Positions 41,037 through 59,751 of a stretch of 64,000 nt of DNA are shown piece by piece; position 1 is the stretch's first letter, and each line of letters opens with the position of its first letter. Source of the stretch: Naegleria gruberi. Lineage: Eukaryota. The translations under genes and the position numbers were made by a program. Where the stretch lies: assembly GCA_000004985.1 (NCBI GenBank), contig GG738865.1. One strand, given 5' to 3'. The notes under the pieces were generated by a model. It saw only the letters and a program-made list of their open reading frames with translations. It was not told the origin of the DNA and did not search any database.

Positions 41037-41138
41037 ACTAGGAAAACAAATACTTCTAAGTACGATTATAATAATAAATATAATGTTACAAAATTGTATT
41101 TGACACTCTAATTTACACAGTTATTTTACAAAAATGAA

Positions 41139-42359: not shown

Positions 42360-42776
42360 TTTTTTTTACTGCATGATGAAATTTTCCAAAGCCTTTGCAA
42401 AAAGATAATCAATTGATTATGATGATGATTTACTTTTTATTTATTTTTTAATGGAAATTCATACAAATGATGAATGAAGAATGTTTATAGCCAAGAAAAT
42501 TACAATTTCAATATTTTCTGATATTCTTCATCGGGTGATGAAAGTTTATTTAATTATTTATCATACATCAGGCGGGAAAAATATTCAATTAAAATTTGTG
42601 ATGAAAAAATTACTTCATAAAAAAAAGTGAAAAAAAAAAGCATCAACAAATTTTCAGAGTTGTTCTGAGAACATTAAATTTATAACCATCAACAAATTTT
42701 AAAGCGGATTCACACAATTTTGACCATATTATCATCATAGTTAACAAAACAATAACAACAATATCATTGGAAAATT

Positions 42777-44578: not shown

Positions 44579-44680
44579 ATAAATTATTTTAGTTCAATCT
44601 TAAATTCCAGCCAATAGGTTTTACTCTTTGTGGAGCCATAGTTCAATAGTTAATGATCAGCTTATTGTAAAGAATGGCGT

Positions 44681-45784
44681 TTATTCATCATCTTCCATAT
44701 CAGAGAATGGTTCTGAAATATCTGAAATGGCTGAATCTTCTTCATCTTGTTCTTCTTCTACTTTGGTTGGATTTTCTTCATATTTCACATACTGTAATTT
44801 ACCTTGTTGAATTCTCTTAGATTCTTCAGCTTGAAGGAATTGTTTAAGTGTTTCAGTAATTTCCTTTGATTTAACAGATCCAATTTGAGCACATTCTAAA
44901 ATTTGATCCTTTGTCAAAGCCAAACCACCACCTTTTTGAATGGCACACAATTCCTTGTGAGCATTAAGGGCAATGGTCATAAAACCTTCTGCAATCATTT
45001 CCTCTTTTTTACATGGATCAACAACGAATAAAGTAGCCGAATCATGATCAAAGAATGAAAAAGATGTACAAATAGGAATGTGATGAACACTCAATGGAAC
45101 TGGTTGTCTATCTTGAACAGTGTGAACAACAACTCTATCACCTTCAATTGTAACTTCAGGTCTCTTAAAATGTAAAAGTGCAGCAACAGCAGCTAAATGA
45201 CAACAATCAAAAACATTTCCATCATCTTGTAAAATATGTACATCAACACGTAAACTCCAAACCTTTCTTCCTGCAATAATACATAAAGCTTCTGTATCAA
45301 TAGATCTTGATCCTCTTAAAGAACGATCAATAACTCTTCCAATTTCAATACATAATTCTCTTTGTTGAGATGTTTGTTTTGTTCCTATTGGTCTTGAACC
45401 AACTGTACTAAAATCTATTTGAAATGTTAAAAATCCTTCGTTTGGTCTATCCATATATGGTTCCATAATACTACAAGAAACAATTCCCAATGCAATTGTA
45501 TTTCCTAATGTAACTTGAACTTGTCCTGAAGGAACAGCAAGTTCTTGTGAAGATGTTGGTAAAGAAAATTCAATACTTCTATAATCATATAAATCACGTC
45601 CATCAATTCTTAAAATACTCGGGAGTGAGGATGATGATGATGACGATACTATTGGAGTTGATTTCTTTGAATCCGATTTATTTGTACTTGTTGGAGTATT
45701 AGATTCAATAGGCTTGTTTTCATCAAGTGTTGTTAGAATAAAATTCTTTTCATTGCTCGAAAGTGCTGAAGGCTTTAAAGACAT
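44681..45784 (-). CDS. Exosome component RRP45 / EXOSC9 (RNase PH-like).
   Basis: LRIDGRDLYDYR, ..VWSLRVDVHILQDDGNVFDCCHLAAVAALLHFKRPEV.. and ..PLSVHHIPICTSFSFF.. are collinear with EXOSC9. An acidic C-terminal tail is present. Confidence 0.85.
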   Translation of the reverse strand: MSLKPSALSSNEKNFILTTLDENKPIESNTPTSTNKSDSKKSTPIVSSSSSSSLPSILRIDGRDLYDYRSIEFSLPTSSQELAVPSGQVQVTLGNTIALGIVSCSIMEPYMDRPNEGFLTFQIDFSTVGSRPIGTKQTSQQRELCIEIGRVIDRSLRGSRSIDTEALCIIAGRKVWSLRVDVHILQDDGNVFDCCHLAAVAALLHFKRPEVTIEGDRVVVHTVQDRQPVPLSVHHIPICTSFSFFDHDSATLFVVDPCKKEEMIAEGFMTIALNAHKELCAIQKGGGLALTKDQILECAQIGSVKSKEITETLKQFLQAEESKRIQQGKLQYVKYEENPTKVEEEQDEEDSAISDISEPFSDMEDDE

Positions 45785-45955
45785 TTTTTTATAAATTTAA
45801 ATTCCAAAACATTTTTGAAATAATTATTTTATGATGAAATATTATGAATTCATTGGTTTTATAATGTTGATTGAATCTAAATTTCACTAATAGATTGACT
45901 ATCAATTTGTAAAGATAACGAAAGATTTTATTAATATTAAATTTAATATAAAAAA

Positions 45956-46210
45956 ATGGAGAATATGCAAAGAATAGTTCAACTTTCATGGATTCCCGAT
46001 AAGAAGGTTGATATTGATAGAGATTGTGATATGTGTATATTATTTCATGATTCACCATGTGCTAATCAATTTGATTCCTTCTTAACAAGTAAGAATGAAA
46101 CAGATTTTGATAAAGTTAAACAATGTTTGGATGCTAACAAGGCTCTTTTTGATACGAGACAAGAGGAAATTCATCAAAAGATTCAACCATTCTTTCCAAA
46201 GAATAATTAA
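45956..46210 (+). CDS. Small Cys-containing hypothetical protein (84 aa).
   Basis: ATG is confirmed. It has a Cx2C...C pattern (DCDMCILFHDSPC) and sits in a 765-bp divergent intergenic region. No family assigned. Confidence 0.3.
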   Translation: MENMQRIVQLSWIPDKKVDIDRDCDMCILFHDSPCANQFDSFLTSKNETDFDKVKQCLDANKALFDTRQEEIHQKIQPFFPKNN

Positions 46211-46562
46211 ACCACGAGGAAGAAGAAGTGGTAATTGTTCTATCTAACAAGAACAAAAACAACAACAAGAATTTTCCTTCTATTAATGATTGGCTATATG
46301 AAACTAACAAGAAAGAGGAGTAAAAAAGGACTAATAGCTCCACAAAGATTACATTTTGAACTAGTCACGACACTATAATAACATGATAATTCATCATTGT
46401 GATGATGATAAGATTGAAGGCTTTAAATTATTTAATTGAATTTAATTAAAAAAATAAATGCAAAACATTCAACAAGAAGCCTAATTTTATCATACATTAA
46501 TAATAACTAATAACTAAATAATCCTACAAAGAGGAAGATAAAGTTTATAATTGTATATAATA

Positions 46563-49500
46563 ATGCCACCAAAGAAAAACAATCAACCTAAAATAACTGC
46601 CTTTATTTCAAAAAAGTCTTCTTCAACTAATGAATCATCTTCCGAAGAGCCTTTAAAACTGTCAGATCTACTACCACCATCATTAGCTTCATTTGCATCA
46701 TCATCATTAATAGAACAATCAAAGGAACATCATCATGGAGAACATATACAAATTGCAACAGAACATCAAGAAACCTTTCAACCACCACCATCATCATCAT
46801 TCTTATCTGGAACACCAGGATTATCTTTACCTAATAATGATGGTTCTTTATTGTCACTATTTGGAGGAGAATACTTGACTGAAATCATTCCAATTGAACA
46901 AGATAATCAACATCATCCAACAACACTTTTTGAAACTAATATTTCAAAATCATTGGAAAATCAGAATGCTCCATTAAATATTAGTGATCTTATGATGGAT
47001 GATTTACATATTGGTGGAATTGGTAGTGGAGTTGATTCAACCCCAAGTTTGGATGAATTAAAGAATCTTGATATTGGAAAATATATTGAAGAACAAACAG
47101 GTTCAGCTACAAATCAAGTACAAACAGCAATGCAAATTTGTAACATTTTCAGAGAACCTGGTAATCAACAAAATTCAGAATTGTTAAAACAAGCAACAAG
47201 TTCCTTGATAGATCAACAAGAAAATGAAAGTGATGATGATGATAATAGAAGTGTAATGACAGAATCATCTCAAGTAACATCTGAAAATTATAAAGGAGAT
47301 GATTTTGATGAAATTTATGGACCAGATGAGGGTGAAGGAGATTATGATTATTTGGATGATATCTTGAAAGGAATGTTAAAAAGAAAAAAGAGAAAGAGAG
47401 CAATGAAATCTAAAAAAACTAGGAAAAAGAAGGAAGACAAAATACCAAAAGAGGTTAAAGAAATGTTAGGTGAAGCAAATCTTGAATTTATTGGTGCAAA
47501 TTTTTCAAAAGCAGTTCAAATTTTATTAGAAGTTATTCGTGTTTGTCCAAATATTTCTGATCCATATCATACACTGGGTCTTATTTATGAAGAATTGGGT
47601 ATTTTAGATAAGGCAACTGATTTTTATTTAATTGCTGGTTTACTTTCACCAACAAATTTAGAGTTTTGGAATAGACTTTCAGAATTATGCATCTCAACAA
47701 ACAAACTTCAACTTGCTGCTTATTGTTTGAGAAGAATTTACTTAATTGATCCAAAGAATTATAACGCAAGAATCAAACAATGTGAACTTTTCATGATACT
47801 TAATCAACCACAAAGAGCCATTAATGGATACAAATCACTTTTGAAACAATTTCCTGGTGATGTTCCAGTTGTAATGTCATTGGCAAAGATTTACTATGAA
47901 CTTAATAGAGTTTTTGATGCTATTGATGTTTTACAAGAGGCAATTTCTAGAGATGAACAACGTGTAGATTTAACTCTAGTGAACATGCTCGCAGAGTTAT
48001 TCATCAATGAAGGTTGGTATGAAAAGGCTGTCAAACTTATTGAAAGAATTAGTGTTCAACAAAATTGTCCAATTGAAATTATGCCACCTGATATTTCTTC
48101 AAAATATGCAATTTCTCAAACCTATTTAGGAAAGCTTTCTAATGAAAAAGTTGAAAGTATTTTTGAAGATATTTTAAAATCACCTGTTGCAGAATTTGGT
48201 GATTTATTTTTCAGTATTGCAGAAATGTATTACGTTGTCAATGAATTTAGGAAAGCACTTAATGTTTACTCACTACTTACAACAAGTGAAGTTTATAATA
48301 AGGCATCAATTTGGTTAAGAATTGCTGAATGTTACAAATCTTTGAATGAAGTTGATGAATCAATCAAGTATTGTGAAATGGTTCTCCATGTAATTCCTGA
48401 CAATGTTGAAGCTAGAATATTATTGAGTGAAATTTATAAGGATATTGGTGATATTCAAAAGGCTGTTGATGTTCTTGAACATTCTGGTAGTGAAAGAGCA
48501 AAGAAAGATTTGGCCTCTCTCAGAAAATCATTTGACAAGTCTAGTAATGGTAACGATGATGATTACAACAGTGATGATGATGATAGTGATAAAGAGGGAG
48601 ACTATTCATCTGATGAAGATACAGAACAAGAGAAGGATCCAGATTTTAACCCTGAAGATATAGAACCAAGTGATGATGACATTAATTTACCTGACGATAT
48701 GGAAGATGAAAAAACTGAGGAACAAAATAGAACTGAAAAAGTTAAAGATATTAGAATTATGGTTAAGAAAGCTTGGATTTTACATTCGACTGGACAACAT
48801 GAGGAATTTATCAAAACTGCTCTTCCAGTAGTTTTGAGTATTCTTGATCTTGATCAGGAAAATCCAGAATGGATGAAAGAATTAGGAAAGAGGAAGAAAC
48901 GTATCATTCTCAATTATGATATTGGTCTCAAGAGACAAAGAAAAAAGATTGTTGATGTATCTAAGGAAGATGGTTGGACATGGACTGAAGCATTAAGTGC
49001 TATGGGAGATTATAATCTTTATACTTTTATTGTTGCTCTGTGTAAAGTATTGGCATATTGTCAACAGAATGAGGAATGTTTAAGAATATTATCAGTTTTA
49101 CTTTTAAATTCAAGATCCACAAGAAAAAAGTTTACATTCAAATCACATGAAGAAAAACAAAGAAAGAGGCAACATTTAAGATATTTATATGTTGCTGTTT
49201 CGTATAATAGTGGATTTTACAAACGTGCCTATAATGCAATTCGTCCAATTATTTCAGACAAACCATACAGCATACCATTACTTAATCTTTTCAATAAGAT
49301 TACAACTAGAGTTGGTAATATTTTAGCAAATCATGGTTTCATGTTAAGATTATTGGACAAACATCCACAATCAGTTCCATTAATGCTCCTGGTTGGTCAT
49401 AATTGTGCTATGAGTGGAAGTCACAAATTAGCTATTGGTGAATATTTTAGAGCTTATAGATTTATGCCAAATGAACCAATAATTAGTTTGTGTCTAGGAT

Positions 49501-49829
49501 TGAGTTATCTCAATTTAGTTATGAATAGAAGAACTGCTAATAGAAATCTTCATGTCATGCAAGCATTCACATTCCTGTATAGATATTTTGAATTACGAGA
49601 GGGAAATCAAGAAGCTCACTTTAATTTGGCTCGTGCATATCATCAACTTCGTTTATATCATTTAGCAACACCTTATTATAAGAAAGTACTTGAATTATCT
49701 GATTCTGGTAAAATTCAACCTGATTCTGATTTGAAGAGAGAAGCTGCTTATAATTTATCATTAATTTATAAGGAATCGAGTAATTATTCACTTGTAGAAT
49801 ATTTAACTGAAAAGTATTTGACAATTTAA
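46563..49829 (+). CDS. TFIIIC TPR subunit (TFC4 / GTF3C3-like). The start is re-anchored to ATG (MPPKKNNQPK...).
   Basis: An N-terminal acidic region is followed by TPRs (..AVQILLEVIRVCPNISDPYHTLGLIYEELGILDKATDFYLIAGLLSPTNLEFWNRL..). It has the overall size and architecture of TFC4. Confidence 0.7.
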   Translation: MPPKKNNQPKITAFISKKSSSTNESSSEEPLKLSDLLPPSLASFASSSLIEQSKEHHHGEHIQIATEHQETFQPPPSSSFLSGTPGLSLPNNDGSLLSLFGGEYLTEIIPIEQDNQHHPTTLFETNISKSLENQNAPLNISDLMMDDLHIGGIGSGVDSTPSLDELKNLDIGKYIEEQTGSATNQVQTAMQICNIFREPGNQQNSELLKQATSSLIDQQENESDDDDNRSVMTESSQVTSENYKGDDFDEIYGPDEGEGDYDYLDDILKGMLKRKKRKRAMKSKKTRKKKEDKIPKEVKEMLGEANLEFIGANFSKAVQILLEVIRVCPNISDPYHTLGLIYEELGILDKATDFYLIAGLLSPTNLEFWNRLSELCISTNKLQLAAYCLRRIYLIDPKNYNARIKQCELFMILNQPQRAINGYKSLLKQFPGDVPVVMSLAKIYYELNRVFDAIDVLQEAISRDEQRVDLTLVNMLAELFINEGWYEKAVKLIERISVQQNCPIEIMPPDISSKYAISQTYLGKLSNEKVESIFEDILKSPVAEFGDLFFSIAEMYYVVNEFRKALNVYSLLTTSEVYNKASIWLRIAECYKSLNEVDESIKYCEMVLHVIPDNVEARILLSEIYKDIGDIQKAVDVLEHSGSERAKKDLASLRKSFDKSSNGNDDDYNSDDDDSDKEGDYSSDEDTEQEKDPDFNPEDIEPSDDDINLPDDMEDEKTEEQNRTEKVKDIRIMVKKAWILHSTGQHEEFIKTALPVVLSILDLDQENPEWMKELGKRKKRIILNYDIGLKRQRKKIVDVSKEDGWTWTEALSAMGDYNLYTFIVALCKVLAYCQQNEECLRILSVLLLNSRSTRKKFTFKSHEEKQRKRQHLRYLYVAVSYNSGFYKRAYNAIRPIISDKPYSIPLLNLFNKITTRVGNILANHGFMLRLLDKHPQSVPLMLLVGHNCAMSGSHKLAIGEYFRAYRFMPNEPIISLCLGLSYLNLVMNRRTANRNLHVMQAFTFLYRYFELREGNQEAHFNLARAYHQLRLYHLATPYYKKVLELSDSGKIQPDSDLKREAAYNLSLIYKESSNYSLVEYLTEKYLTI

Positions 49830-49922
49830 ATAAATTTCAATAAGAATTGATTGGAAAATTTCAAATAATATTTCAAATAAAAATAATTCAAGAAACAATT
49901 TATATTAAATTATAATAATAAA

Positions 49923-50978
49923 TTATTGGAACAACTTTTTAGCAATGGTAGTAACATGTTTTCCTTGGAATCTTGCCATTTCCTTTTCTTGATCAGATGG
50001 CAATCTTTCACCTTTTCCACCAGCTATTCAAGTAATTAACGTTAATAAATATCAAAAATGATGATTCTCAAACTTACCAATAGTAGCACAACCATATGGT
50101 GAACCTCCCTTAATTTCATCCAAACCCATTTGAGTTGAACATGAATAAGGTAAACCAACATAAACCATACCATGGTGAAGAAGGACTGTTGAAAAAAATG
50201 AAATAATTGTTAAATAGAGGACCGTAATTGTACCAAATAAAGTTAAAAACGGTAAATGGTTGTTTACCAAATATAGTATAAGCTATACTCACCTGGTAAC
50301 GAAGAAAGCACCGTAACCTCATTTCCTCCATGTTGTGTAGCACTGGAAGTAAAGAAGGAACCAACCTTACCAACCAAAGCACCACTTGCCCAATGTCCAC
50401 CAGTTGCATCCAAGAAGGACTTTAATTGAGCTGTCATGGTACCAAATCTGGTTGGAGAACCGAAAATAATTGCATCATAGGATGGAAGTTCAGCAGTAGT
50501 TGCCTATTACATGTTTTGAAAATGATAATATCAATAATTTCGATTTCGAATTTTAAAGTTAGTTATTTGATCATCAATGAATTCAAATATCAAAATAAAC
50601 ATCAATCAAATAAAATATGAAAACATACAATTGGAATGTGAGCAAAAGCCTTTTGAGCATCAATAGCATTCATCTTTTCTAAAACTTCAACTGGCAGAGT
50701 TTCTGGAACTCTCTTTACAACAACTTCAGCTCCTTCAACTTGTCTTGCACCTTCAGCAATGGCCTCTATGAGAATTATTTAATTAGAAAGTATTGATCAA
50801 AATTGGATCATGTTTTTTGAGTTTGTAATAATTGAATGGTTGATCAAATTAATTGAAGAATAAATACTGTGAACAGAGAGTTTAGAATAGATATTATTAT
50901 CAAACAATAACTTACCTAACCAGCCATTTGCCAGATGTGACCATATGTTGAGTAAAAGAGAACGAGTACCTTGACCAT
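49923..50978 (-). CDS. WrbA-type NAD(P)H:quinone oxidoreductase (flavodoxin-like). Five exons: 50921..50978, 50629..50765, 50293..50503, 50078..50185 and 49923..50023.
   Basis: The spliced protein (204 aa) is [42 protein letters not shown]...[43 protein letters not shown]...[13 protein letters not shown]...[23 protein letters not shown]... It is collinear with E. coli WrbA. The four introns are 155, 125, 107 and 54 nt, all GT..AG. The first donor is GTTAGG. Confidence 0.85.
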
Positions 50979-51405
50979 TTATTGTGTTGATTTGTTTTTT
51001 TTGATTTGTTTGAATTTGATCTTTTGGTGTTTTAGGATTTTGTGATTTATTTGTAACCTTGTTAACATTGATCAGTGTTGTAAAGTCAAAATCAATGAAT
51101 TTCAAAGATTCTTTAAAGATTGATTTATATTTTCAATTACAATTTCATATTCCTCTTGTCAGTTATTGAAATAGTCAATTACACAATTTACTAATTTCTT
51201 TGATACTTCAATTCTACCATCCATTCATTTCAGAATTTGAATCAAAATGTTCCTCACAACCTCTCCTTCGCATTCTCTTTTAACAATCGAATGCACATAA
51301 ACCAATCATTGGTTCATTTTCAAAATTTATTCTTCACGGCACTGCAAATTTAATTCTTTTTTTAAATTCCAACAATAAAAAAATAGCAAAAAACAGTCGA
51401 GAGAG

Positions 51406-54400
51406 ATGGGTAAGAATACAGAGCAAAGAAAACCAAAATCACAAAAAGGTGCTATTAGTGCTTCTCAAGCAGCGAATGTACTTTCTAGTAAATCTGGTAG
51501 TAGTTCTAGTGGTGGTTTATTGGGAAGCTCATTGATGGAAGCCTTTAGTAAAAAATCAAGCCTTGGCTCATCATCATTGGATTCATCTTCATCATCTTCA
51601 TCATCATCATCACTCGATCCAACTGTACAATCCTATTTAAAACATTTAAATAAGAGAGATCCAACAACAAGATGTAAAGCATTACAATCTCTTACACAAT
51701 ACATTTCCGAACAACAACCAGAAGATCAAACTAATACATGTAAAAACATTTTAGAACATTTTGAAGAAGTATTTAAAAAGATTGCAGTGATAGACCTTGA
51801 TAGAAAAGTTAGATTAAATTTATTTATTTTATGGAAATTAATTGTTCAAAATGTAGGAAAGAAATTAGGTTTTCATATTAAAAAGATTATGCCATATTGG
51901 TTAATGGAAATGGTTGGAATTGATGATAGAGATGTTTCTAAAGCTGCTATTGCTGCATTTCATCAAGGATTTCCTCCAGAAAAGAGAGATGCTGCTATTT
52001 TATACTGCGATAATGAAATTATGAATAATTTATTTGAAAATTTTAATCAAACTGTAGAATCTTTAAGTTTAAACGAAACTGAACAACAAAGTATTACTAA
52101 AGAAGAAGCAGAAGAAAGATATTCAAGATTTATTACTAGTTCTATTCTAATGTTAAACAAAATGATTGATTTAACTACCCAACAACAACAACAAACAAGT
52201 CAACCAGCAACAGGTGAATCCTATAAGAAAATATTTGGATCTAAGAATTTTTGGAAGTTTTTAGGTATTAAATCTTATACAAATATTAGAGAAGCTATGA
52301 GTAGATTGACAATTACTTTACTCAAGAATGATTTATTGAAAAAGGATGATCCTGAAGTAGTTGAACATATTGTTCCATTTGTTGCTCCAATTTTTATTGG
52401 ATGTTTTAATCAACAACCTTTAGAAAGAACAACTTTGGATTCTTTAATTTTGTTTTTACAAAAATTTGCTCCTGAATGTTGGGCTCATGTTAATGTTTGG
52501 AAACAAACATTCCCTAGATTCTTTTCATTCCTTAAAGATCCATCTAATCCATCAATTAACTATCCAATTGTATTACCTTTCATTTCAATGTTAAATACTT
52601 CTATTTATGGAGCTGATAAGTCAATCAAATTTGTTTCTGATTTATTTGAAAATATGTGGATTGGTTTTGAAAAGTATTGTTCTTCAAATAATCCAAATGT
52701 AAATTCTGCTACTAATAGACAAGCTATTAAAGCTGATAGAGATGCAATTATTGATTCTATTTGTAATTGTATTATTTACATTGCTTTGCAAACTGAAAAA
52801 TATTGCACTGAAGAACAAAAACCAGAAATTCTCAAAATTACTAGATCTACCTTAGAAAAGATTACCATTTATTATTTAACAAATTCAAATACTGTTAATT
52901 ATGGTAAATATCTTTCAGCTGCAATTACAAAGATACAATCAAAACCAGAATTAGCAGAATATATGAATCAATTTTGGAGTGAAATTACAAACTTTACTTT
53001 GAATAATATTAACAAGATTGATGTAGTTTCAATTGAAATTTTCATTTCTAGGTGTGTTAAAGAAAAATTGGAACATGTTTTTAAACTTGCTCATGAATTA
53101 TTTGACAAGTGTATGATGATTGGACAAATTGATGTTGCATCCGCAGTTGCATTCTCCTATCCAACTGTATTGAAATCAACATTATTTGAAGATACTTTGA
53201 AAACTTTATGGCAAACAAGTCAATTCAATGAACATGTTCAACAAATTGTTGGTCTCTATTTTACTCAATTCCAAGATCAATTTGAAAAGTTTGAAAAAGT
53301 TTTAGAAGAAGAAATTAAAGAAGGAAGAGCTCAAGTTCCAATTTTCCCACTCCTCAGATCACTCTACTCTGAGGAAGAAACATTCAGCAAGACTAGTGTT
53401 TCATTGGAAAAGTCATTGTTGGCTAGAAGAGATCTCGACAGTATTGAATATCTCATCACTCACAAACTCTATTCATCAAAGGAAGATTTGAGAAGACTTT
53501 TAACTGATATCATTTCCAATGGAGATGATTTACAAGAAAGAGCTGTTGAATTTATCATTTCTACACCAAGTGAATATAGTATTGACAAGAGTGTTTTGTT
53601 TGCTTTATTCAAGGGTGCTCATTATGGTACTTTGGCTCAATTAATTTCTGATAAACCAAAGCAACAAGAAGACGATGAGGAGGAAGAACAAGATCATGAT
53701 GAAGAGGAAGTTTACACCAATGTTATTACAAGTGAAATGAAGAGTGAATTGTTGAATGATATTACCATCTATTTGAAAGATATCATTACACAAGATTCCA
53801 AGATTACCAATGATATTATTTTAGATCAATTCCTTAAACTTGTAGAATTATCTGGTAGTAATACTCTTGCTGATTCTGTTTTATTGAATTATGAAAATGA
53901 TTCAGTTTGGTCTTTTATTAGAAATCAATGTGCATCCAATCTTAAACCAATTGTTATTGGTAATCAAGTTATTTGGAATAGTACAAAAGATACCAATGTT
54001 TCTGAATTGGAAAAGTCAGTTATCAAGTATAGTCGTTTAGTTTGTGTTGTATTGTCCTATGTTGAAGCAATTCACAAGAATCAAATGGAAATTAGAGAAC
54101 AAAAATGGGAATGGCTTGTTAGAGAAGTTTTACATTCCTTCTATTTTGAATTCTTATTCAATGATTTTACCAAGAATTTAATTAACAAATTCTTAGCTCA
54201 TGTTAATTCAACTGAAGGTTTAAATCTTGAATTTTGTGAATATTTAGCTCATAGACATGAATTGGAATTGTTAAAGATTTACATTTCCATGAATTCTGAT
54301 AAGGTTTCTGGTTTAGATTGTAGCAAGTTATTATTCAAAACAGAAGATGTTAATGATGTTATTTCTGATAAGAACAAATCTAATACTTTCTATGAACTTG

Positions 54401-56148
54401 TTCAATCATTATTTGATAATGACACTGATTTGAGAGGTTTAACAATTTCCAATGAAAAAGTAACTGAATGGTTACTTGGATGTATTAGTATTTCAAGTAC
54501 ATTGGATAATCTTTCAGAGAGTAGCTATGATCACTTAAATTTAATCAAAGTACAAGCAGCTTTATCAATTGTCTATTGTAAACAATTTGTCAATACTTTA
54601 GAAGATGAAGAAGAAATTACCATTGATTCTATTATTGATTTTGCTAAAGAATTTTATGAACAAATCAAACAATCAAATTCTTCTACTGAATTGAATCAAA
54701 TTAGTATTATTGTTGCTAATTTATTAATTAGTGTTTATGGAACTAATGATACAGTTAAAATTGAAGATAATACCTTTGTTGAACAATTTATTACTTCAAA
54801 CTTGCAAGAATTAACAAATAATTTAGAAAATAATTTCGAGTTACTTGATAAGATTATTCATTTATCAGCATGTGTCGCTAAACACAAGAAGAATATTATG
54901 ATTGTTGAAAAACTCATTCATACATTCTTACTTTTGAATAGAGAATCTTTAAATCTCTCAAATCAATATCCAACTGTTATGGAGAGACTTATTAGTAGAA
55001 GTTCAAAATATTTGAAACCATTACAATTATATCAAAATTATTCTGAAATTAAATTAGAAAGTAATTATATTAAGGAAATTTTAGAAATTATTGAAAATAG
55101 TCAAATTGCCAATGCTAAAATTGTTGCAACTGATTTACTGTTATTAACAAATTATCATCAAGATGGTGAAAAAGTTTTAAAACTTATGGAAAATATGAAG
55201 AAACATGTACCTGAACAATTTAATAATATTCTTCAAGAAAGTGCAGTTAGAAATAAGCACATGACACAATTTGTTCAATTATATTCTGAATATAGTAATG
55301 ATAATAATAATGAGTTACCATATTTATTATCTTGGTATTATATTCTTTGTTTAATTGAAACAGATGCAATTTCTCAAGATCAAAATGATAATTCCTTTGA
55401 TTTATTTACCAAACTTAAAGAAAGTCAAGCTTATGCACCAATTTTAAGTTTATTAACATGTTTCTTATATAGTGGTGAGGATGCAATGTTTTCAATGGAA
55501 TTTAGAGAATTTGGAGATGATTTAATGTACAAATTTTCTAAAGTTTTACCTTTATTTGTTAGAATGTGGTTTAATAATTGTAATGATACAGTTACAATTG
55601 ATTGGATTCAAAAGAGATTTTCTGATTCATATAGTCCTGCCATTATTAGAGATGAAATTTCAAAGATTAAAAAATCAGATGCACTCTCAAAATCACTTGG
55701 AGCTAAAATTTCAATGGGAAATCAAATTATTGCCAAATATGAACAAGATGAAGTAGTGTTAAAATTAACAATCAAAATACCAGATTTATATCCATTGAAA
55801 CCACTTCAAATTGAATCTAATGAACATTCAGCAGTTGATGAAAATAAGTATAGAAAATGGATATTGAAAATGACAACCATGTTATTTAGTCAAGTAACAA
55901 GTAATGGTGTTTCAGATGTTTTAGTTTTATGGAAGGAGAATTTAGACAAACATTTCCAAGGAGTTGAACCATGTCCAATTTGTTACAGTGTTGTTTCTGG
56001 AAGAGATCACCAAATACCAAAAGTTGAATGTAAAATTTGTCATAACAAATTCCATGGTGCTTGTATTTATAGATGGTTCTCTACAAGTGGAAATCAAACT
56101 TGTCCAATGTGTCGTAGTATTGGTCAATTTGTTTCAAATCATAAATAA
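51406..56148 (+). CDS. E3 ubiquitin ligase Listerin (Ltn1/RKR1), intronless, 1580 aa.
   Basis: A HEAT-like body is followed by a C-terminal RWD region and a RING-CH domain (CPICYSVV..CKICHNKFHGACIYRWFSTSGNQTCPMCR). ATG is confirmed. Confidence 0.9.
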   Translation: MGKNTEQRKPKSQKGAISASQAANVLSSKSGSSSSGGLLGSSLMEAFSKKSSLGSSSLDSSSSSSSSSSLDPTVQSYLKHLNKRDPTTRCKALQSLTQYISEQQPEDQTNTCKNILEHFEEVFKKIAVIDLDRKVRLNLFILWKLIVQNVGKKLGFHIKKIMPYWLMEMVGIDDRDVSKAAIAAFHQGFPPEKRDAAILYCDNEIMNNLFENFNQTVESLSLNETEQQSITKEEAEERYSRFITSSILMLNKMIDLTTQQQQQTSQPATGESYKKIFGSKNFWKFLGIKSYTNIREAMSRLTITLLKNDLLKKDDPEVVEHIVPFVAPIFIGCFNQQPLERTTLDSLILFLQKFAPECWAHVNVWKQTFPRFFSFLKDPSNPSINYPIVLPFISMLNTSIYGADKSIKFVSDLFENMWIGFEKYCSSNNPNVNSATNRQAIKADRDAIIDSICNCIIYIALQTEKYCTEEQKPEILKITRSTLEKITIYYLTNSNTVNYGKYLSAAITKIQSKPELAEYMNQFWSEITNFTLNNINKIDVVSIEIFISRCVKEKLEHVFKLAHELFDKCMMIGQIDVASAVAFSYPTVLKSTLFEDTLKTLWQTSQFNEHVQQIVGLYFTQFQDQFEKFEKVLEEEIKEGRAQVPIFPLLRSLYSEEETFSKTSVSLEKSLLARRDLDSIEYLITHKLYSSKEDLRRLLTDIISNGDDLQERAVEFIISTPSEYSIDKSVLFALFKGAHYGTLAQLISDKPKQQEDDEEEEQDHDEEEVYTNVITSEMKSELLNDITIYLKDIITQDSKITNDIILDQFLKLVELSGSNTLADSVLLNYENDSVWSFIRNQCASNLKPIVIGNQVIWNSTKDTNVSELEKSVIKYSRLVCVVLSYVEAIHKNQMEIREQKWEWLVREVLHSFYFEFLFNDFTKNLINKFLAHVNSTEGLNLEFCEYLAHRHELELLKIYISMNSDKVSGLDCSKLLFKTEDVNDVISDKNKSNTFYELVQSLFDNDTDLRGLTISNEKVTEWLLGCISISSTLDNLSESSYDHLNLIKVQAALSIVYCKQFVNTLEDEEEITIDSIIDFAKEFYEQIKQSNSSTELNQISIIVANLLISVYGTNDTVKIEDNTFVEQFITSNLQELTNNLENNFELLDKIIHLSACVAKHKKNIMIVEKLIHTFLLLNRESLNLSNQYPTVMERLISRSSKYLKPLQLYQNYSEIKLESNYIKEILEIIENSQIANAKIVATDLLLLTNYHQDGEKVLKLMENMKKHVPEQFNNILQESAVRNKHMTQFVQLYSEYSNDNNNELPYLLSWYYILCLIETDAISQDQNDNSFDLFTKLKESQAYAPILSLLTCFLYSGEDAMFSMEFREFGDDLMYKFSKVLPLFVRMWFNNCNDTVTIDWIQKRFSDSYSPAIIRDEISKIKKSDALSKSLGAKISMGNQIIAKYEQDEVVLKLTIKIPDLYPLKPLQIESNEHSAVDENKYRKWILKMTTMLFSQVTSNGVSDVLVLWKENLDKHFQGVEPCPICYSVVSGRDHQIPKVECKICHNKFHGACIYRWFSTSGNQTCPMCRSIGQFVSNHK

Positions 56149-56426
56149 TTTGTTCTTTTTTCATATGTTGTTATTAGTACTCTCTTTGTTCATTGTTGTT
56201 GTATCCAATATATATTGGAACACTTTCATTCATAGGTAAGGTTACATTGGCTGTTTGTTGAATAATGAAGCAGAGAATTCAACATGTTTTCAGACTAGTC
56301 AATAAATATCTTAGAGTCATCATTACTAAAGAATCTTCCTTATTGCTGTTTCATACATCAATGATTGCTTCAAACCTATTTAAAATCACCATTTGATGAT
56401 CAATTAAAATCAAAAATCATTAAAAA

Positions 56427-58334
56427 ATGCAAAATTCAACCTCTTCATCTACTTCATCACTCGGAGGAAGTAGCAATGGTAGCACAAAGCCTAAAGTTAA
56501 ACCACTTCCAACAGCTCCACTCACCTCCAATCATCACCAACAACAACAACAACAATATTCAAAATCACCAAATACAACAACTTTTTATCCTCCTCCATCA
56601 TCTTCATCATCTTCATCATTAGCCTCTCATTCATCCAATAATACAAATCATACAAATCATCATCATACAAATAATAATCAATATGAATCTAATCTAACAG
56701 ATCAAGATCAACAAACATTAACCAATACAATTATTAAAGAATATTTAACAGCACAAGATGTAATTGATACATTTAAATTAGATGAACAATATCCATCATT
56801 AAAAACAAGTGAATTATCTTATTTTTATGATTTACTAGATGATGAATTTGATGATTATGGTGAAAATTTATCAATTTTTGAAAAATTTTATTACCATAAT
56901 TCAACTATTCAAAATTTAGATCATTTTAATAATAATTTATCTAATAATAATAATAATTTATTAAATAATAATAATTTATCTAATAATAATAATTCTAATA
57001 ATTTAAATAATTTATCTAATAATAATTTAAATAATAATAATTTAATTAATTCAAATTTTAATATTGAAAGTAAAATTGATGAAAAAATGATAATTAATGA
57101 ATTAAATTCCAATTCTGAAATGACAAGATTAAAATCAATTAGAGATTTAAAATTACTTGTAAAATATAAAAAAGAATATTCCATATTTATATTACCACAA
57201 TTATTTTCCTTATATAGTACAATTGAAGATGAAGAACATTATAAACAAAATTATGAATTTAATTCAACATTTCAAATATTACAAGTTATTACTTTTATTA
57301 GTGAAAATTATTCAATTGAATGTAAAAAAGAATATTCAAATCATTTTTATAACATGTTATATATTTTATCAAAAAGGAAATTACCTAAAAAGTATACAAA
57401 CAAATTTATTATAATTAATTTTTTAAAATTATTAAATATTTACATGCCAAATTATTTAATTGATAAAAATGATTTTTATGAATTTGAAAATATTGCATTT
57501 CCTTATTATATTAAATTTATTTCTTTAAATTTTATTTTATTTAATTCTTTATATTTTAATTTTATTTTAAAATCTTTAAAAATTACAAATTTGGAAATTA
57601 AAAATGAAATTGAAAATATTATTGATTTTTATTTTTATATTTTTAATGAATTTAAATATACTAAATATGTAATTAATCAATTAAAAGATTTATTTTCAAT
57701 TATTAATGAAAAATATTTAAATTCTACTTTACAATATTTTATTAATTTATTTAAAAATGAAAAATTAATTTTAGTAATGATTTTAAATAGTATTAATTTT
57801 AAATATTTAAAAAATTTAAATATTTTAGAAATTTTAAATGAAAATTTATTAAATAATTTTGAAAATAATTTAAAATTACTTGATATAGGTGAACAAGTAA
57901 TTTTATTTAATAATTTATTTAATTTATTTAATATTTTATTTAAATTTAATGATAATTTAATTTCTATTTTTATTAAATTACATGAAAATTATTTTGAAAA
58001 TATTTATAAACCATATCATTCATGTTTAAATTTTATTAATAATAGAATTAAATATACAAAATTAGAAAATGTTAAAATACAAGATGTTACAATTAAAATT
58101 TTAATTATTTTTAAAAATTTAATTAAAAAATCAAATTTTGATGAAATTATTTATAATTATTATAAATATTCAATTATTAATAATAATTTTAATATTTTAA
58201 ATTTAAATGAATTTAATCAATGTTTAATTCAAATATTAAAAAATAATAATAATTTAAATATTGATTTATTAAATGAAATTAAATTATTAACAGATAATGA
58301 TGATTTAATTCAATTAATTAATGAAAAATGTTAA
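56427..58334 (+). CDS. Low-complexity Asn/Ile/Leu/Lys-rich protein of unknown function.
   Basis: It is an uninterrupted 635-codon frame. The first third has ordinary composition with Ser/Gln/His runs. The last roughly 1.4 kb is nearly 90% AT, with long AAT (Asn) codon arrays, yet has no stop codon in frame. Confidence 0.5.
   Translation: MQNSTSSSTSSLGGSSNGSTKPKVKPLPTAPLTSNHHQQQQQQYSKSPNTTTFYPPPSSSSSSSLASHSSNNTNHTNHHHTNNNQYESNLTDQDQQTLTNTIIKEYLTAQDVIDTFKLDEQYPSLKTSELSYFYDLLDDEFDDYGENLSIFEKFYYHNSTIQNLDHFNNNLSNNNNNLLNNNNLSNNNNSNNLNNLSNNNLNNNNLINSNFNIESKIDEKMIINELNSNSEMTRLKSIRDLKLLVKYKKEYSIFILPQLFSLYSTIEDEEHYKQNYEFNSTFQILQVITFISENYSIECKKEYSNHFYNMLYILSKRKLPKKYTNKFIIINFLKLLNIYMPNYLIDKNDFYEFENIAFPYYIKFISLNFILFNSLYFNFILKSLKITNLEIKNEIENIIDFYFYIFNEFKYTKYVINQLKDLFSIINEKYLNSTLQYFINLFKNEKLILVMILNSINFKYLKNLNILEILNENLLNNFENNLKLLDIGEQVILFNNLFNLFNILFKFNDNLISIFIKLHENYFENIYKPYHSCLNFINNRIKYTKLENVKIQDVTIKILIIFKNLIKKSNFDEIIYNYYKYSIINNNFNILNLNEFNQCLIQILKNNNNLNIDLLNEIKLLTDNDDLIQLINEKC
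56935..57060 (+). repeat. AAT/AAT-TTA codon microsatellite array encoding poly-Asn/Leu (NNNLSNNNNNLLNNNN...).
   Basis: Read directly from the sequence. It lies within CDS 56427..58334. Confidence 0.7.
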
Positions 58335-58883
58335 ATATTTGATTAATTATTATAATAAAAATACAAATTTGTAATTTTATCAAGTTATTCTTATCTAAAT
58401 GATCCAATTCAATAATTTTACAGTAATAAATGTTCTATATGAACTCCTTTCCCTTGTCAGTTAAAATCTGATCATTAATCACATATAATTAGATGTTATA
58501 TGTTCATATCAATATTTAGCAGTTAATTGTTTGTGTGTTCTGATATTCCTTTTTTCCTCATCTTCTATTTCATTTTCAATTAGAAGATGAAAGAGTTCGC
58601 ATCACCACACAGAAAAACACAAACGTTGAACTCTATTAATAAATCCATGATGAAAATGCAACACTTTTAAAAAAATAGAAGAAAATAACAATAGCTGTAC
58701 AAATCATTAACGTGATCTGATCAACAACAAAAGCCTTTATTTTTGAAAAATCAAAACAACACGACTACATTTTGATCATATTATACAATATCGGATCAGC
58801 CTCATCACCTACAATAATATAACTCGTTATTATTAAATCATTAAATCAAAATACATCAACCTATATAAATATATAAAAATAAA

Positions 58884-59516
58884 ATGTTAGAAGCAATATT
58901 TGGTAAGAAAAAGACACCTAAAGAATTACTTCGTGAATATAAAAGAAATATTGAACGTACAATGAGACAAATGGAAAGAGAAAGATTAAAATTACAAAAT
59001 CAAGAAAAGAAATTAATTAATGATATGCGTCGTTTGGCAAGACAAAATCAAATGGAAACAGTTAAAATTATGGCTAAAGATTTAGTTCGTACACGTAATC
59101 ATATAACTAAAATGCACAAAATGAATGCTCAACTTCAAGCAATTTCATTAAAATTGACAACTTTAAATTCAACAAATGAAATGACACAAGCAATGAAAGG
59201 AATGACAAGAACAATGACATTAATGAACAAACGTTTAAATTTACCTGAAATGCAAAAGATTATGCAAGAATTTATGAAACAAAATGAAATGATGGATATG
59301 AAAGAAGAAATGATGGGAGATATGATGGATGATGTTATGGAAGATGATGAAGTTGAAGAAGATGAATTAGTAAATCAAGTTTTAGATGAAATTGGTTTAG
59401 ATATGAGTGGTAAATTAGGTAAAACTCCAAATAATAAGATTTTAAATGAAGAAACAGAACAACAAGATAATACAGATGATTTACAAGAACGTTTAGAAAA
59501 TTTAAGAAAGAATTAA
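58884..59516 (+). CDS. ESCRT-III subunit CHMP2 / Vps2 (Snf7 family).
   Basis: MLEAIFGKKKTPKELLREYKR...IMAKDLVRTR...AMKGMTRTM...MQEFMKQNEMMDMKEEMM...LQERLENLRKN is collinear with human CHMP2A (MDLLFGRRKTPEELLRQNQR...LEERLKNLRRD). Confidence 0.85.
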   Translation: MLEAIFGKKKTPKELLREYKRNIERTMRQMERERLKLQNQEKKLINDMRRLARQNQMETVKIMAKDLVRTRNHITKMHKMNAQLQAISLKLTTLNSTNEMTQAMKGMTRTMTLMNKRLNLPEMQKIMQEFMKQNEMMDMKEEMMGDMMDDVMEDDEVEEDELVNQVLDEIGLDMSGKLGKTPNNKILNEETEQQDNTDDLQERLENLRKN

Positions 59517-59701
59517 TTTTTTAGTACCCTTTCTTTGTAAATATATTAAACAATTTTTGTAATTCTATTATTTTTTAATTTGATCTCTATTATTATTATT
59601 TGTTTTTACTCAAATCATTCGAGAATTGAGGTGAAAATAAATTTCAATCAAGGCTTGATGTTTTTTTTAAAAAAATGAAAAGCCTTTAATCGGATCACAA
59701 C

Positions 59702-59751
59702 NNNNNNNNNNNNNNNNNNNNNNNNNNNNNNNNNNNNNNNNNNNNNNNNNN
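59702..59751. other. Assembly gap (50 N).
   Basis: Run of N. Confidence 1.

What the first reader, a model, noticed from the sequence alone, without database searches (positions are those of the whole stretch)
56900..58334. A 1.4 kb segment of about 90% AT that is nevertheless a single uninterrupted reading frame
From about 56900 to 58334 the sequence is composed almost entirely of A and T. It is dominated by AAT, ATT, TTA and AAA codons. Random sequence of this composition would be expected to hit TAA, TAG or TGA every few dozen codons, yet about 480 codons stay open in the frame of the gene starting at 56427. Stop codons are frequent in the other five frames. This indicates selection for an open frame in an extreme low-complexity Asn/Ile/Leu/Lys/Phe protein (..FILFNSLYFNFILKSLKITNLEIKNEIENIIDFYFYIFNEF..). 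Composition shifts sharply relative to the gene's own 5' third and to neighbouring genes. It may be a prion-like or intrinsically disordered tail, a lineage-specific expansion, or a coding region invaded by AT-rich repeat expansion.
Basis: seen in the sequence. Interest (0 to 1): 0.5.

Follow-up and report, generated by a model that had tools for sequence, protein, structure and literature searches.

The report
Extremely AT-rich but genuine amoeba gene
The 90%-AT stretch is the real coding body of a Naegleria gruberi gene for a helical-repeat protein; it appears to have drifted to the local mutational extreme because its sequence is only loosely constrained, which makes it an extreme example of a known effect.

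Summary
Positions 56900-58334 are 10.4% GC. They hold 478 codons with no in-frame stop, against 25-120 stops in the other five frames (chance about 1e-25).

The window is Naegleria gruberi NEG-M. The ORF 56427-58334 (635 aa) lies between the listerin and CHMP2a genes. It has colinear, full-length, syntenic orthologs in N. lovaniensis (788 aa), N. fowleri (821 aa) and Willaertia magna (497 aa). It is therefore a real gene, not UTR and not a chance frame.

The AT-rich part (residues 217-635) is predicted to be about 22 helices forming a HEAT/ARM-like alpha-solenoid. It does not look like a prion-like or disordered tail. Only residues 159-216 (56913-57063) are a lineage-specific Asn/Leu/Ser codon-repeat insert.

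The W. magna ortholog is equally extreme (7.6-10.7% GC). The N. lovaniensis and N. fowleri-like orthologs are 33-35% GC. In each species the gene's first and second codon positions sit much closer to the local four-fold-site GC than the neighbours' do. In N. gruberi the block's four-fold-site GC (0.058) does not differ from that of nearby genes (0.089, p=0.62). What the block lacks is G/C-ending two-fold codons and GC-rich amino acids.

Best reading: directional AT mutation pressure acting on a weakly constrained, probably weakly expressed solenoid protein. The mechanism is ordinary; the degree is extreme. Protein function is unknown.

The parts
56427..58334 (+). Complete single-exon CDS of a 635-aa protein, stop codon included. 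It belongs to an uncharacterised family seen only in Naegleria and Willaertia.
   Evidence: ORF. Orthologs P0001, P0002/P0008 and P0005/P0007. Colinear alignments. Synteny with CHMP2a.
56427..56723 (+). N-terminal Ser/Thr/Gln/His-rich region (residues 1-99), predicted disordered. It contains the conserved PKVKPLP motif. GC is 0.34.
   Evidence: pLDDT below 50. The motif aligns with N. lovaniensis and N. fowleri. GC.
56724..56900 (+). Conserved acidic/aromatic segment (residues 100-158: NTIIKEYLTAQDVID...ELSYFYDLLDDEFDDYGE). It is 61-63% identical to the other Naegleria orthologs. GC begins to fall here (0.19).
   Evidence: Invariant columns; segment identities and GC.
56901..57074 (+). Lineage-specific Asn/Leu/Ser codon-repeat insert (residues 159-216). 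The tandem array is at 56913-57063 with periods of 18, 36 and 39 nt. GC is 0.069. It is the only truly low-complexity, possibly disordered part of the AT-rich block.
   Evidence: TRF. The insert is a gap in all orthologs. Entropy 2.26 bits. pLDDT below 50. No GT dinucleotide before 57070, so it is not a canonical intron.
57075..58331 (+). Alpha-solenoid (HEAT/ARM-like) domain, residues 217-635, about 22 helices. It is encoded at 8-16% GC, with Gly, Ala, Arg and Pro together only about 2-3% of residues.
58335..58400 (+). AT-rich 3' flank, inferred to be the 3' UTR. GC returns to about 0.25-0.29 immediately downstream.
   Evidence: 100-bp GC profile and sequence. The UTR status is an inference and was not tested.
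51406..56148 (+). Upstream neighbour: E3 ubiquitin ligase listerin (XP_002677748.1), GC 0.281. It identifies the organism and serves as a composition control.
   Evidence: Exact match; Pfam; composition.
58884..59516 (+). Downstream neighbour: CHMP2a / Snf7 family (XP_002677750.1), GC 0.269. It is the syntenic anchor in all four species.
   Evidence: Exact match; Pfam; synteny; 82% identity to N. lovaniensis.
39888..59516 (.). Domain of about 20 kb in which four-fold-site GC is very low (0.00-0.14 per ORF, against 0.15-0.36 upstream). The target gene lies inside it.
   Evidence: Per-ORF GC4; GC3.

Best explanation
The AT-rich segment is the coding body of a genuine, vertically inherited Naegleria gruberi gene. 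Its 635-aa product has a disordered Ser/Thr-rich N-terminus, a conserved acidic motif, a species-specific Asn-repeat insert, and an alpha-solenoid (HEAT/ARM-like) domain of about 420 aa.

The frame stays open because the protein is under purifying selection. The DNA is about 90% AT because this part of the N. gruberi genome has a very AT-biased equilibrium at freely evolving coding sites (four-fold-site GC about 6-9%). This solenoid tolerates nearly any substitution that keeps the helical hydrophobic/polar pattern. Its first and second codon positions have therefore slid most of the way to that equilibrium: Gly/Ala/Arg/Pro are lost and Asn/Ile/Leu/Lys/Phe/Tyr are gained.

The gene also lacks the G/C-ending two-fold codons (AAG, TTC, Leu-G/C) that its neighbours use. 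This is consistent with weak or absent selection on codon usage, that is, low expression.

Shown: the gene is real, it is orthologous, the fold class is predicted, and the composition follows the pattern described.

Inferred: weak constraint plus mutation pressure as the cause; low expression; a scaffold/adaptor role for the protein.
For: 1. The open frame is far beyond chance: 0 stops in 478 codons against 54 expected, P about 1e-25. The W. magna ortholog shows the same: 0 stops in 397 codons at 7.6% GC, P about 1e-22.

2. Orthologs are full-length and colinear. N. lovaniensis C9374_009157 scores E 3e-72 and the N. fowleri-like protein E 8e-65. W. magna KAL9643926.1 scores E 1e-17 with a profile. 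All lie next to the CHMP2a(Snf7)-Gpi16-UCH genes.

3. The predicted fold is all-alpha for residues 217-635, with block pLDDT mostly 60-84. The best structural matches are all HEAT/ARM solenoids.

4. The block's four-fold-site GC is 3/52 = 0.058 against 126/1414 = 0.089 in nearby genes (Fisher p = 0.62). No special mutational process is needed at these sites.

5. Across species the gene's GC1/GC2 lie much closer to local GC4 than the neighbours' do. N. lovaniensis: GC4 0.31-0.36, target 0.35/0.33, neighbours 0.44/0.38. N. gruberi: GC4 0.06-0.09, target 0.167/0.115, neighbours 0.41/0.32. W. magna: GC4 0.06-0.09, target 0.134/0.068, neighbours 0.34/0.29.

6. Replacements are directional. Where N. 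lovaniensis and the N. fowleri-like protein agree and N. gruberi differs, 75 changes go into the FYMINK class and 39 go out. 21 changes go out of the GARP class and 3 go in.

7. Within the block, GC follows constraint. Residues 217-345 are 64% identical to orthologs with GC 0.158. Residues 411-635 are about 30% identical with GC 0.083-0.089.

8. The gene evolves fast: 37-44% identity to N. lovaniensis, against 82% for the neighbouring CHMP2a.

9. The block has 14 G/C-ending codons (5 of them obligatory ATG) against 77 expected from its amino-acid content and the neighbours' synonymous usage. AAG is 2% vs 35%, TTC 0% vs 28%, and G/C-ending Leu 1% vs 25%.
Against: - No transcript or peptide evidence was available. 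The exact 635-aa product is not in a 15-billion-protein collection, and no N. gruberi protein was retrieved.
- Non-ORF DNA in the window is 21-35% GC. This is much higher than four-fold sites. 'Mutational equilibrium about 6-9% GC' therefore holds only for coding or transcribed DNA, or else the spacers are constrained. This is unexplained.
- The two-fold-site deficit could reflect a gene-specific process rather than a lack of codon selection.
- The trough coincides with the CDS in two genera. A purely regional mutation bias does not predict this by itself; it needs the added assumption of unusually weak protein constraint.
- The structural model rests on only 6 sequences (mean pLDDT 55.8 overall), and its similarity to known folds is generic.
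Confidence: 0.75

Rival explanations
1. A gene-specific process makes this gene AT-extreme. One option is locally elevated C-to-T / G-to-A mutation, for example through heavy cytosine methylation, duplex breathing of AT-rich DNA (a positive-feedback deamination model), or transcription-associated damage. The other is selection for AT-rich DNA or RNA, for example deliberately non-optimal codons or an unstructured mRNA. In either case the process is inherited from the Naegleria/Willaertia ancestor or has recurred.
For: - The trough follows the CDS and about 65 nt of 3' flank rather than the region as a whole.
- The same shape is seen in N. gruberi and W. magna: a normal 5' end, decay to 1-10% GC, and sharp recovery after the stop.
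- Two-fold synonymous sites are about 12 times poorer in G/C than in neighbours (0.012 vs 0.142).
- The gene is the local GC minimum even in N. lovaniensis (inside 0.326 vs outside 0.374, sd 0.029).
- Spacers are far richer in GC than the gene.
Against: - Four-fold sites are no more AT-rich than in neighbouring genes (p = 0.62).
- RIP-type indices are not met: TpA/ApT is 0.84 and (CpA+TpG)/(ApC+GpT) is 2.07.
- No paralog was found that could trigger a repeat-induced process.
- In W. magna the gene's GC3 (0.048) lies within the range of its neighbours (0.033-0.147).
- Residual GC sits where the protein is most conserved, as simple mutation-selection balance predicts.
Confidence: 0.15
2. The AT trough is primarily a cis-acting chromosomal DNA element, such as a centromere-like, origin-like or matrix-attachment AT island of the kind seen in Plasmodium or diatoms. 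It happens to overlap a coding sequence.
For: - It is the only trough below 17% GC in 60 kb.
- Its size of about 1.5 kb is similar to AT-rich point or regional centromeres of some protists (own knowledge, not tested here).
- It lies near a scaffold end (real sequence stops at 60660).
- A trough at the orthologous gene exists in W. magna.
Against: - The trough is a strongly maintained ORF with a conserved, foldable product.
- Its edges match the CDS, not an intergenic space.
- The N. lovaniensis and N. fowleri-like orthologs have no trough.
- Composition is explained by GC4 tracking.
- W. magna has a separate non-coding 3%-GC tract nearby, so such tracts there need not be genic.
Confidence: 0.04
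3. The open frame is not a functional gene. It would be a chance ORF, a decaying pseudogene, UTR or intergenic DNA, or an assembly chimera or contaminant from a very AT-rich organism such as Dictyostelium.
For: - No exact or near-exact N. gruberi protein is in the public collections searched.
- The composition resembles Dictyostelium or Plasmodium coding DNA.
- No Pfam domain is found.
Against: - The probability of zero stops is about 1e-25.
- The frame runs continuously from the normal-GC 5' part, whose N-terminus aligns with Naegleria orthologs.
- There are 198 columns invariant across three Naegleria sequences, including long motifs inside the block (IRDLKLLVKYK, FILPQLFS, EYSNHFYNML).
- Synteny is conserved.
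- N. gruberi is no closer to W. magna (34%) than N. lovaniensis is (34%), so there is no sign of foreign origin.
Confidence: 0.02
4. The block encodes a prion-like or intrinsically disordered Asn-rich tail produced by repeat expansion.
For: - Asn makes up 20% of residues 159-635.
- Residues 159-216 are a tandem Asn/Leu/Ser codon array absent from orthologs and of low model confidence.
Against: - For residues 217-635, I+L+F+Y make up about 45% of residues, helices are predicted throughout at moderate confidence, and there are solenoid fold matches.
- The block aligns colinearly with orthologs of normal composition.
- N. gruberi is shorter than its orthologs, having lost their Ser/Thr/Gly-rich loops rather than gained repeats.
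- TRF gives only weak, short, low-score hits outside 56913-57063.
Confidence: 0.04

Closest known systems
Proteins reshaped by directional AT mutation pressure: the FYMINK-up / GARP-down shift described for Plasmodium falciparum, Dictyostelium discoideum, AT-rich mitochondria and reduced endosymbionts (Sueoka 1988; Foster et al. 1997; Singer & Hickey 2000; cited from my own knowledge)
   Same: FYMINK residues make up 59% and GARP 2.3% of the block. Replacements are directional. Codon positions 1 and 2 follow the synonymous-site composition across four species.
   Different: In the classic cases the whole proteome shifts. Here a single gene reaches about 10% GC while its immediate neighbours stay at 27-28% GC, with GARP 12-19%, in a window that is 31% GC overall. 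The degree is at or beyond that of the most AT-rich genomes I know of (own knowledge).
HEAT/ARM alpha-solenoid scaffold proteins (e.g. importin-alpha, beta-catenin, CTF3/CENP-I, Pds5, KAP3, MMS19)
   Different: No Pfam HEAT/ARM or other family is matched by any of the six homologs. No PDB sequence relative is found. Sequence identity to structural hits is 5-14%, TM-scores are only 0.26-0.40, and no single family stands out. The family is detected only in Naegleria and Willaertia, plus one 122-aa fragment of unknown origin.
Asn-rich low-complexity inserts and prion-like domains of AT-rich eukaryotes (Plasmodium, Dictyostelium; own knowledge)
   Same: Residues 159-216 (56913-57063) are a species-specific array of AAT-rich codons with periods that are multiples of 3. 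The insert sits between conserved blocks.
   Different: This applies to only about 12% of the AT-rich block. The rest is orthologous, non-repetitive and predicted folded.
RIP-mutated AT-rich regions of fungi
   Same: A sharp local AT-rich block lies in a genome of moderate GC.
   Different: RIP indices are not met. No duplicate copy is detected. The reading frame is intact, whereas RIP creates stops. Four-fold sites match the neighbours.

Membership tests
Functional protein-coding gene (versus chance ORF, UTR or pseudogene) | Open frame much longer than composition allows | tested here: met
   0 stops in 478 codons against 54 expected, P about 1e-25; the other frames have 25-120 stops.
Functional protein-coding gene (versus chance ORF, UTR or pseudogene) | Full-length colinear orthologs in related species at a syntenic position | tested here: met
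   N. lovaniensis, N. fowleri and W. magna orthologs align to the C-terminus. All are adjacent to CHMP2a/Gpi16/UCH.
Functional protein-coding gene (versus chance ORF, UTR or pseudogene) | Evidence of transcription and translation | not testable with these tools
   No N. gruberi transcript or proteome data are reachable. No identical protein or fragment is in the collections. Literature searches for the ortholog accessions found nothing.
HEAT/ARM alpha-solenoid | Tandem helical hairpins forming a superhelix, with structural similarity to solved solenoids | tested here: met
HEAT/ARM alpha-solenoid | Match to a curated HEAT/ARM (or other) sequence family | tested here: not met
   No Pfam hit at E<=1 for the N. 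gruberi protein. Among all six homologs there is only one hit, a chance-level one (E 0.87). No PDB sequence hit is better than E 1.6.
Prion-like / Q/N-rich intrinsically disordered domain | Polar Q/N-rich composition with few hydrophobic residues | tested here: not met
   In residues 215-635, Asn is 15.7% but I 15.0, L 14.3, F 8.8 and Y 7.4%. The feature is met only by the insert at 159-216.
Prion-like / Q/N-rich intrinsically disordered domain | Predicted lack of stable structure | tested here: not met
   Helices are predicted with block pLDDT mostly 60-84 over 217-635. Only residues 1-216 and 343-360 fall below 50. This is a prediction, not an experiment.
Tandem or microsatellite repeat expansion within a CDS | Head-to-tail repeat units detectable across the segment | tested here: not met
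   TRF finds one real array, at 56913-57063 (scores 96-145). Elsewhere there are only short hits of score 31-90, typical of biased composition. The feature is met for the insert alone.
RIP-like hypermutated DNA | TpA/ApT above 0.89 and (CpA+TpG)/(ApC+GpT) below 1.03, with a duplicated template | tested here: not met
   The indices are 0.84 and 2.07. No paralog was found.
Composition set by directional mutation pressure on a weakly constrained protein | Synonymous four-fold sites are the same as in neighbouring genes | tested here: met
   GC4 is 0.058 vs 0.089, Fisher p = 0.62.
Composition set by directional mutation pressure on a weakly constrained protein | Non-synonymous positions track synonymous-site GC across orthologs, and replacements are directional | tested here: met
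   GC1/GC2 against local GC4 in three genomes. 75 changes go into FYMINK and 39 out; 21 go out of GARP and 3 in. GC within the block scales with conservation.
Composition set by directional mutation pressure on a weakly constrained protein | The same behaviour in other weakly constrained genes of the genome | not testable with these tools
   Only this 64-kb window of N. gruberi is available. No other such gene occurs in it.
AT-rich centromere- or origin-type DNA element | A non-coding AT island, one per chromosome, bound by CenH3 or ORC | tested here: not met
   The island is a selected ORF. Copy number per chromosome and protein binding cannot be tested here.

The most novel reading that the evidence does not exclude
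The extreme AT content is not just drift. On this reading the orthologous gene body in two genera (Naegleria gruberi and Willaertia magna) is subject to a gene-specific process. That process could be a hyper-local mutational regime or selection on the DNA or RNA itself, for example a chromosomal AT element such as a centromere- or origin-like island embedded in, or co-opting, a coding sequence. The protein would then survive on a nearly Gly/Ala/Arg/Pro-free alphabet as a side effect.
Probability: 0.07. Interest if true: 0.7.

Novelty: new member of a known kind. Interest (0 to 1): 0.33.

Why it matters
First, this looks like a real N. gruberi gene that I could not find in public protein sets. 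Its family is restricted to Naegleria and Willaertia and has no known function. That is relevant to lineage-specific biology, because N. fowleri is a pathogen and carries the ortholog FDP41_010525.

Second, it is a striking natural experiment. The same alpha-solenoid is encoded at 33-35% GC in two species and at 6-16% GC in two others. One version has a single Gly and a single Ala in about 420 residues. This shows how far nucleotide bias can rewrite a foldable protein, which is useful for work on reduced amino-acid alphabets, solenoid design and models of mutation-selection balance.

Third, such sequences are easily missed or mis-modelled by gene finders and low-complexity filters, and they saturate word-indexed homology searches.

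The mechanism itself, directional mutation pressure, is long established. The finding is an extreme case rather than a new principle.

Tried and rejected
- **Bacterial promoter/terminator scan.** The genome is eukaryotic, so the scan is irrelevant. Hits were fewer than in shuffles.
- **Rfam scan of 55500-60660.** No RNA family was found.
- **RIP indices.** Not RIP-like.
- **Intron hypothesis for the Asn insert.** No GT occurs before 57070, the insert is in frame, and it is not a canonical intron.
- **Introgression or foreign origin.** N. gruberi-W. magna identity equals N. lovaniensis-W. magna identity at 0.34.
- **Recovering the N. gruberi scaffold and its annotation.** Looking up CHMP2a returned only a 1.2-kb metagenome contig. 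Looking up listerin found no record. I therefore could not see what, if anything, is annotated between EFC45004 and EFC45006.
- **Homology searches.** Two word-indexed searches with the full ORF and with a 3-sequence profile found only the two Naegleria clusters. The exhaustive HMMER profile search added only W. magna and one 122-aa fragment.
- **Family and structure databases.** Pfam on all six homologs and PDB by sequence gave nothing.
- **AFDB fold search.** The library was unavailable.
- **First AlphaFold run with 3 sequences.** Quality was poor (pLDDT 46). The run was repeated with 6 sequences.
- **Literature searches.** Searches for AT-rich regions or centromeres in Naegleria and for the ortholog accessions found nothing relevant.
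Full report
**1.

Positions 56900-58334 are 10.4% GC. The 5' part of the same ORF is 28.8% GC, and the two flanking genes are 27-28%. The frame that starts at the ATG at 56427 runs 478 codons through the block without a stop. The other five frames contain 25-120 stops.

Mononucleotide shuffles give a mean of 54 in-frame stops, never fewer than 31 in 2000 trials. Shuffles that keep codon-position composition give a mean of 36, never fewer than 19. The analytic probability of no stop is about 1e-25.

AAT, TTA, ATT, AAA and TTT are the commonest codons, and 340 of 478 codons contain no G or C. The block is the only one of its kind in the 60.6 kb of real sequence. Outside it, 300-bp windows average 0.316 GC (sd 0.038, minimum 0.20). 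Inside they are 0.07-0.16. GC decays gradually inside the CDS and recovers abruptly about 65 nt after the stop codon.

**2. Where the window comes from**

The upstream ORF (51406-56148) is an exact match to Naegleria gruberi NEG-M listerin, XP_002677748.1. The downstream ORF (58884-59516) is an exact match to N. gruberi CHMP2a, XP_002677750.1 (Pfam). The window is therefore nuclear DNA of the heterolobosean amoeboflagellate N. gruberi. Real sequence ends at 60660, and a 50-N gap lies at 59701-59751.

The exact 635-aa product of ORF 56427-58334 is not in the 15-billion-protein collection. No N. gruberi protein was retrieved by any homology search. As far as these tools can tell, the gene is unannotated or differently modelled. 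The accession numbering does leave one slot (EFC45005 / XP_002677749) between the neighbours, which I could not inspect.

**3. It is a real, vertically inherited gene**

The ORF has clear homologs:
- N. lovaniensis C9374_009157, 788 aa, E 3e-72.
- A cluster containing N. fowleri FDP41_010525, 821 aa.
- Willaertia magna KAL9643926.1 and KAL9643733.1, 497 and 498 aa, found at E 1e-17 by an exhaustive profile search of 1.84 billion representatives. These two lie on two contigs with the same gene order, which I read as allelic haplotypes.
- One 122-aa fragment of unknown origin. Nothing else was found.

The alignments are colinear from the N-terminal PKVKPLP motif to the C-terminus. 198 columns are invariant among the three Naegleria sequences. 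These include long motifs inside the AT-rich block: IRDLKLLVKYK, FILPQLFS, KQNYE.NS.FQILQ and EYSNHFYNML.

In all species the gene sits beside CHMP2a(Snf7)-Gpi16-UCH, although in W. magna these genes lie on the opposite strand on the other side.

The W. magna ortholog is independently kept open: 397 codons at 7.6% GC with no stop, against 31-84 stops in the other frames, P about 1e-22.

**4. What the AT-rich block encodes**

With a six-sequence alignment, AlphaFold2 predicts that residues 1-216 are unstructured (pLDDT below 50). Residues 217-635 are predicted as about 22 helices with block pLDDT mostly 60-84. An earlier three-sequence run was poorer.

No Pfam family matches any homolog, and no PDB sequence relative exists.

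The block is therefore not a prion-like or disordered tail. It is a HEAT/ARM-like solenoid written in a very reduced alphabet. In residues 215-635, N, I, L, K, F, Y and E make up about 79% of residues, and there is one Gly and one Ala.

The only truly low-complexity piece is residues 159-216. This is an Asn/Leu/Ser codon array (TRF periods 18, 36 and 39 at 56913-57063) that is a gap in every ortholog. It has no GT, so it is not a canonical intron. Outside this insert N. gruberi is shorter than its Naegleria orthologs, because it lacks their Ser/Thr/Gly-rich loops. Repeat invasion therefore does not explain the block.

**5. Why it is so AT-rich**

The N. lovaniensis and N. fowleri-like orthologs have ordinary composition: GC 0.346 and 0.325, flat across codon positions at about 0.35/0.33/0.36. 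The W. magna ortholog is as extreme as the N. gruberi one. Its GC is 0.107 overall, with 100-bp windows of 1-6%, and it shows the same normal 5' end and sharp recovery after the stop.

Three results point to ordinary directional mutation pressure acting on an unusually permissive protein.

(i) Four-fold degenerate sites in the block (3/52 = 0.058 GC) do not differ from those of the surrounding genes (126/1414 = 0.089; Fisher p = 0.62). The whole stretch from about 39 kb to the scaffold end has very low GC4: 0.00-0.14 per ORF, against 0.15-0.36 upstream.

(ii) In each species the gene's GC1/GC2 lie far closer to the local GC4 than the neighbours' do:

| Species | Local GC4 | Target GC1/GC2 | Neighbours GC1/GC2 |
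|---|---|---|---|
| N. lovaniensis | 0.31-0.36 | 0.35/0.33 | 0.44/0.38 |
| N. gruberi | 0.06-0.09 | 0.167/0.115 | 0.41/0.32 |
| W. magna | 0.06-0.09 | 0.134/0.068 | 0.34/0.29 |

(iii) Replacements are directional. 75 go into the FYMINK class and 39 out. 21 go out of the GARP class and 3 in. Many of the commonest are pattern-preserving hydrophobic swaps: L/I, Y to F, L to F, V to I.

Two further observations fit. The residual GC sits where the protein is most conserved: residues 217-345 are 64% identical to orthologs with GC 0.158, and residues 411-635 are about 30% identical with GC 0.083-0.089. The gene also evolves much faster than its neighbour, at 37-44% identity against 82% for CHMP2a.

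The remaining synonymous difference is at two-fold sites. AAG is 2% in the block against 35% in neighbours, TTC 0% against 28%, and G/C-ending Leu 1% against 25%. Overall there are 14 G/C-ending codons where 77 are expected. I interpret this as absence of selection for preferred codons, that is, low expression. This is an inference.

**6. What does not fit neatly**

Non-ORF DNA in the window is 21-35% GC. That is well above the four-fold-site GC of adjacent genes, so the very AT-biased equilibrium seems to apply to coding or transcribed DNA, or else the short spacers are constrained.

The trough follows the CDS in two genera. The gene is also the local GC minimum, mildly, in N. lovaniensis (0.326 inside against 0.374 outside). 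These facts leave some room for a gene-specific mutational or selective process. They also leave room, remotely, for a DNA-level role of the AT island. I give these two readings about 15% and 4%.

RIP-type mutation is not supported (indices 0.84 and 2.07, no paralog). Foreign origin is not supported either: N. gruberi-W. magna identity equals N. lovaniensis-W. magna identity at 0.34.

**7. Comparison with what is known**

The behaviour matches the long-established effect of nucleotide bias on amino-acid composition, the FYMINK/GARP shift seen in Plasmodium, Dictyostelium, AT-rich organelles and reduced endosymbionts (my own knowledge). What is unusual is the scale. One gene reaches about 10% GC beside neighbours at 27-28%, the shift is present in two genera but not in two others, and the product is still predicted to fold.

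At fold level the protein is a HEAT/ARM-like solenoid, but it fails sequence-family membership. The Asn insert resembles the Asn-rich inserts of Plasmodium and Dictyostelium proteins.

I therefore classify the finding as a new member of a known kind: an apparently unannotated, lineage-restricted solenoid gene showing an extreme case of a known compositional effect.

**8. Limits**

There are no expression data. Only one 64-kb window of N. gruberi is available, so genome-wide generality is untested. The structural model is shallow (six sequences). The word-indexed protein search is saturated by low-complexity candidates for this query. The AFDB fold library was unavailable. The protein's cellular function remains unknown; a scaffold or adaptor role is inferred from fold class only.

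Noticed in passing
window 186-59516 (step near 38-40 kb): Four-fold-site GC of long ORFs drops stepwise along the window. It is 0.15-0.36 for ORFs up to 38167 and 0.00-0.14 for ORFs from 39888 to the scaffold end (GC3 0.22-0.37 against 0.12-0.17). This looks like an isochore-like domain of at least 20 kb at the end of the scaffold.
   Followed up: partly
window, gaps between long ORFs (e.g. 56149-56426, 58335-58883, 49830-51405): Non-ORF DNA is 21-35% GC. That is clearly richer in GC than the four-fold sites of adjacent genes (0-14%), the opposite of Plasmodium and Dictyostelium. It suggests either constraint on the spacers or an AT bias specific to coding or transcribed DNA.
   Followed up: no
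window 56427-58334: The 635-aa product is absent from a 15-billion-protein collection, and no N. gruberi protein was retrieved. The neighbours are EFC45004 and EFC45006 (XP_002677748 and XP_002677750), which leaves one accession slot that I could not inspect. The gene may be missing or mis-modelled in the reference annotation.
   Followed up: partly
window 59752-60374, next to the 50-N gap at 59701-59751: An ORF begins right at the gap and encodes a Pro/Arg/Ser-rich repeat (RPRPSG-like units). A 65-aa ORF with a hydrophobic, transmembrane-like segment follows in another frame (60177-60374). This may be one gene with a frameshift or intron, truncated by the gap. Neither ORF has a Pfam hit.
   Followed up: no
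L004:20001-20500 (Willaertia magna JBEGDK010000150.1): A 500-bp tract of about 3% GC has no ORF of 60 aa or more. W. magna therefore also has extreme AT tracts that are non-coding.
   Followed up: partly
L004 and L005 (W. magna contigs JBEGDK010000150.1 and JBEGDK010000151.1): Two contigs carry the same gene order (UCH, Gpi16, CHMP2a-like, target) with 497- and 498-aa versions of the protein. They are probably two haplotypes assembled separately. The CHMP2a-Gpi16-UCH block is on the opposite strand and the opposite side compared with Naegleria.
   Followed up: partly
L003 (ENA ERZ929261, contig k127_515800, 1169 bp): A metagenome contig encodes a protein identical to N. gruberi CHMP2a, which suggests that N. 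gruberi-like DNA is present in that environmental sample.
   Followed up: no
L001:8762-9907 and L002:8208-9344 versus window 51406-56148: Upstream synteny is not conserved. In N. lovaniensis and the N. fowleri-like contig the gene upstream of the target is a protein of about 380 aa with no Pfam hit (preceded in N. lovaniensis by a PAP2 gene). In N. gruberi it is listerin.
   Followed up: no
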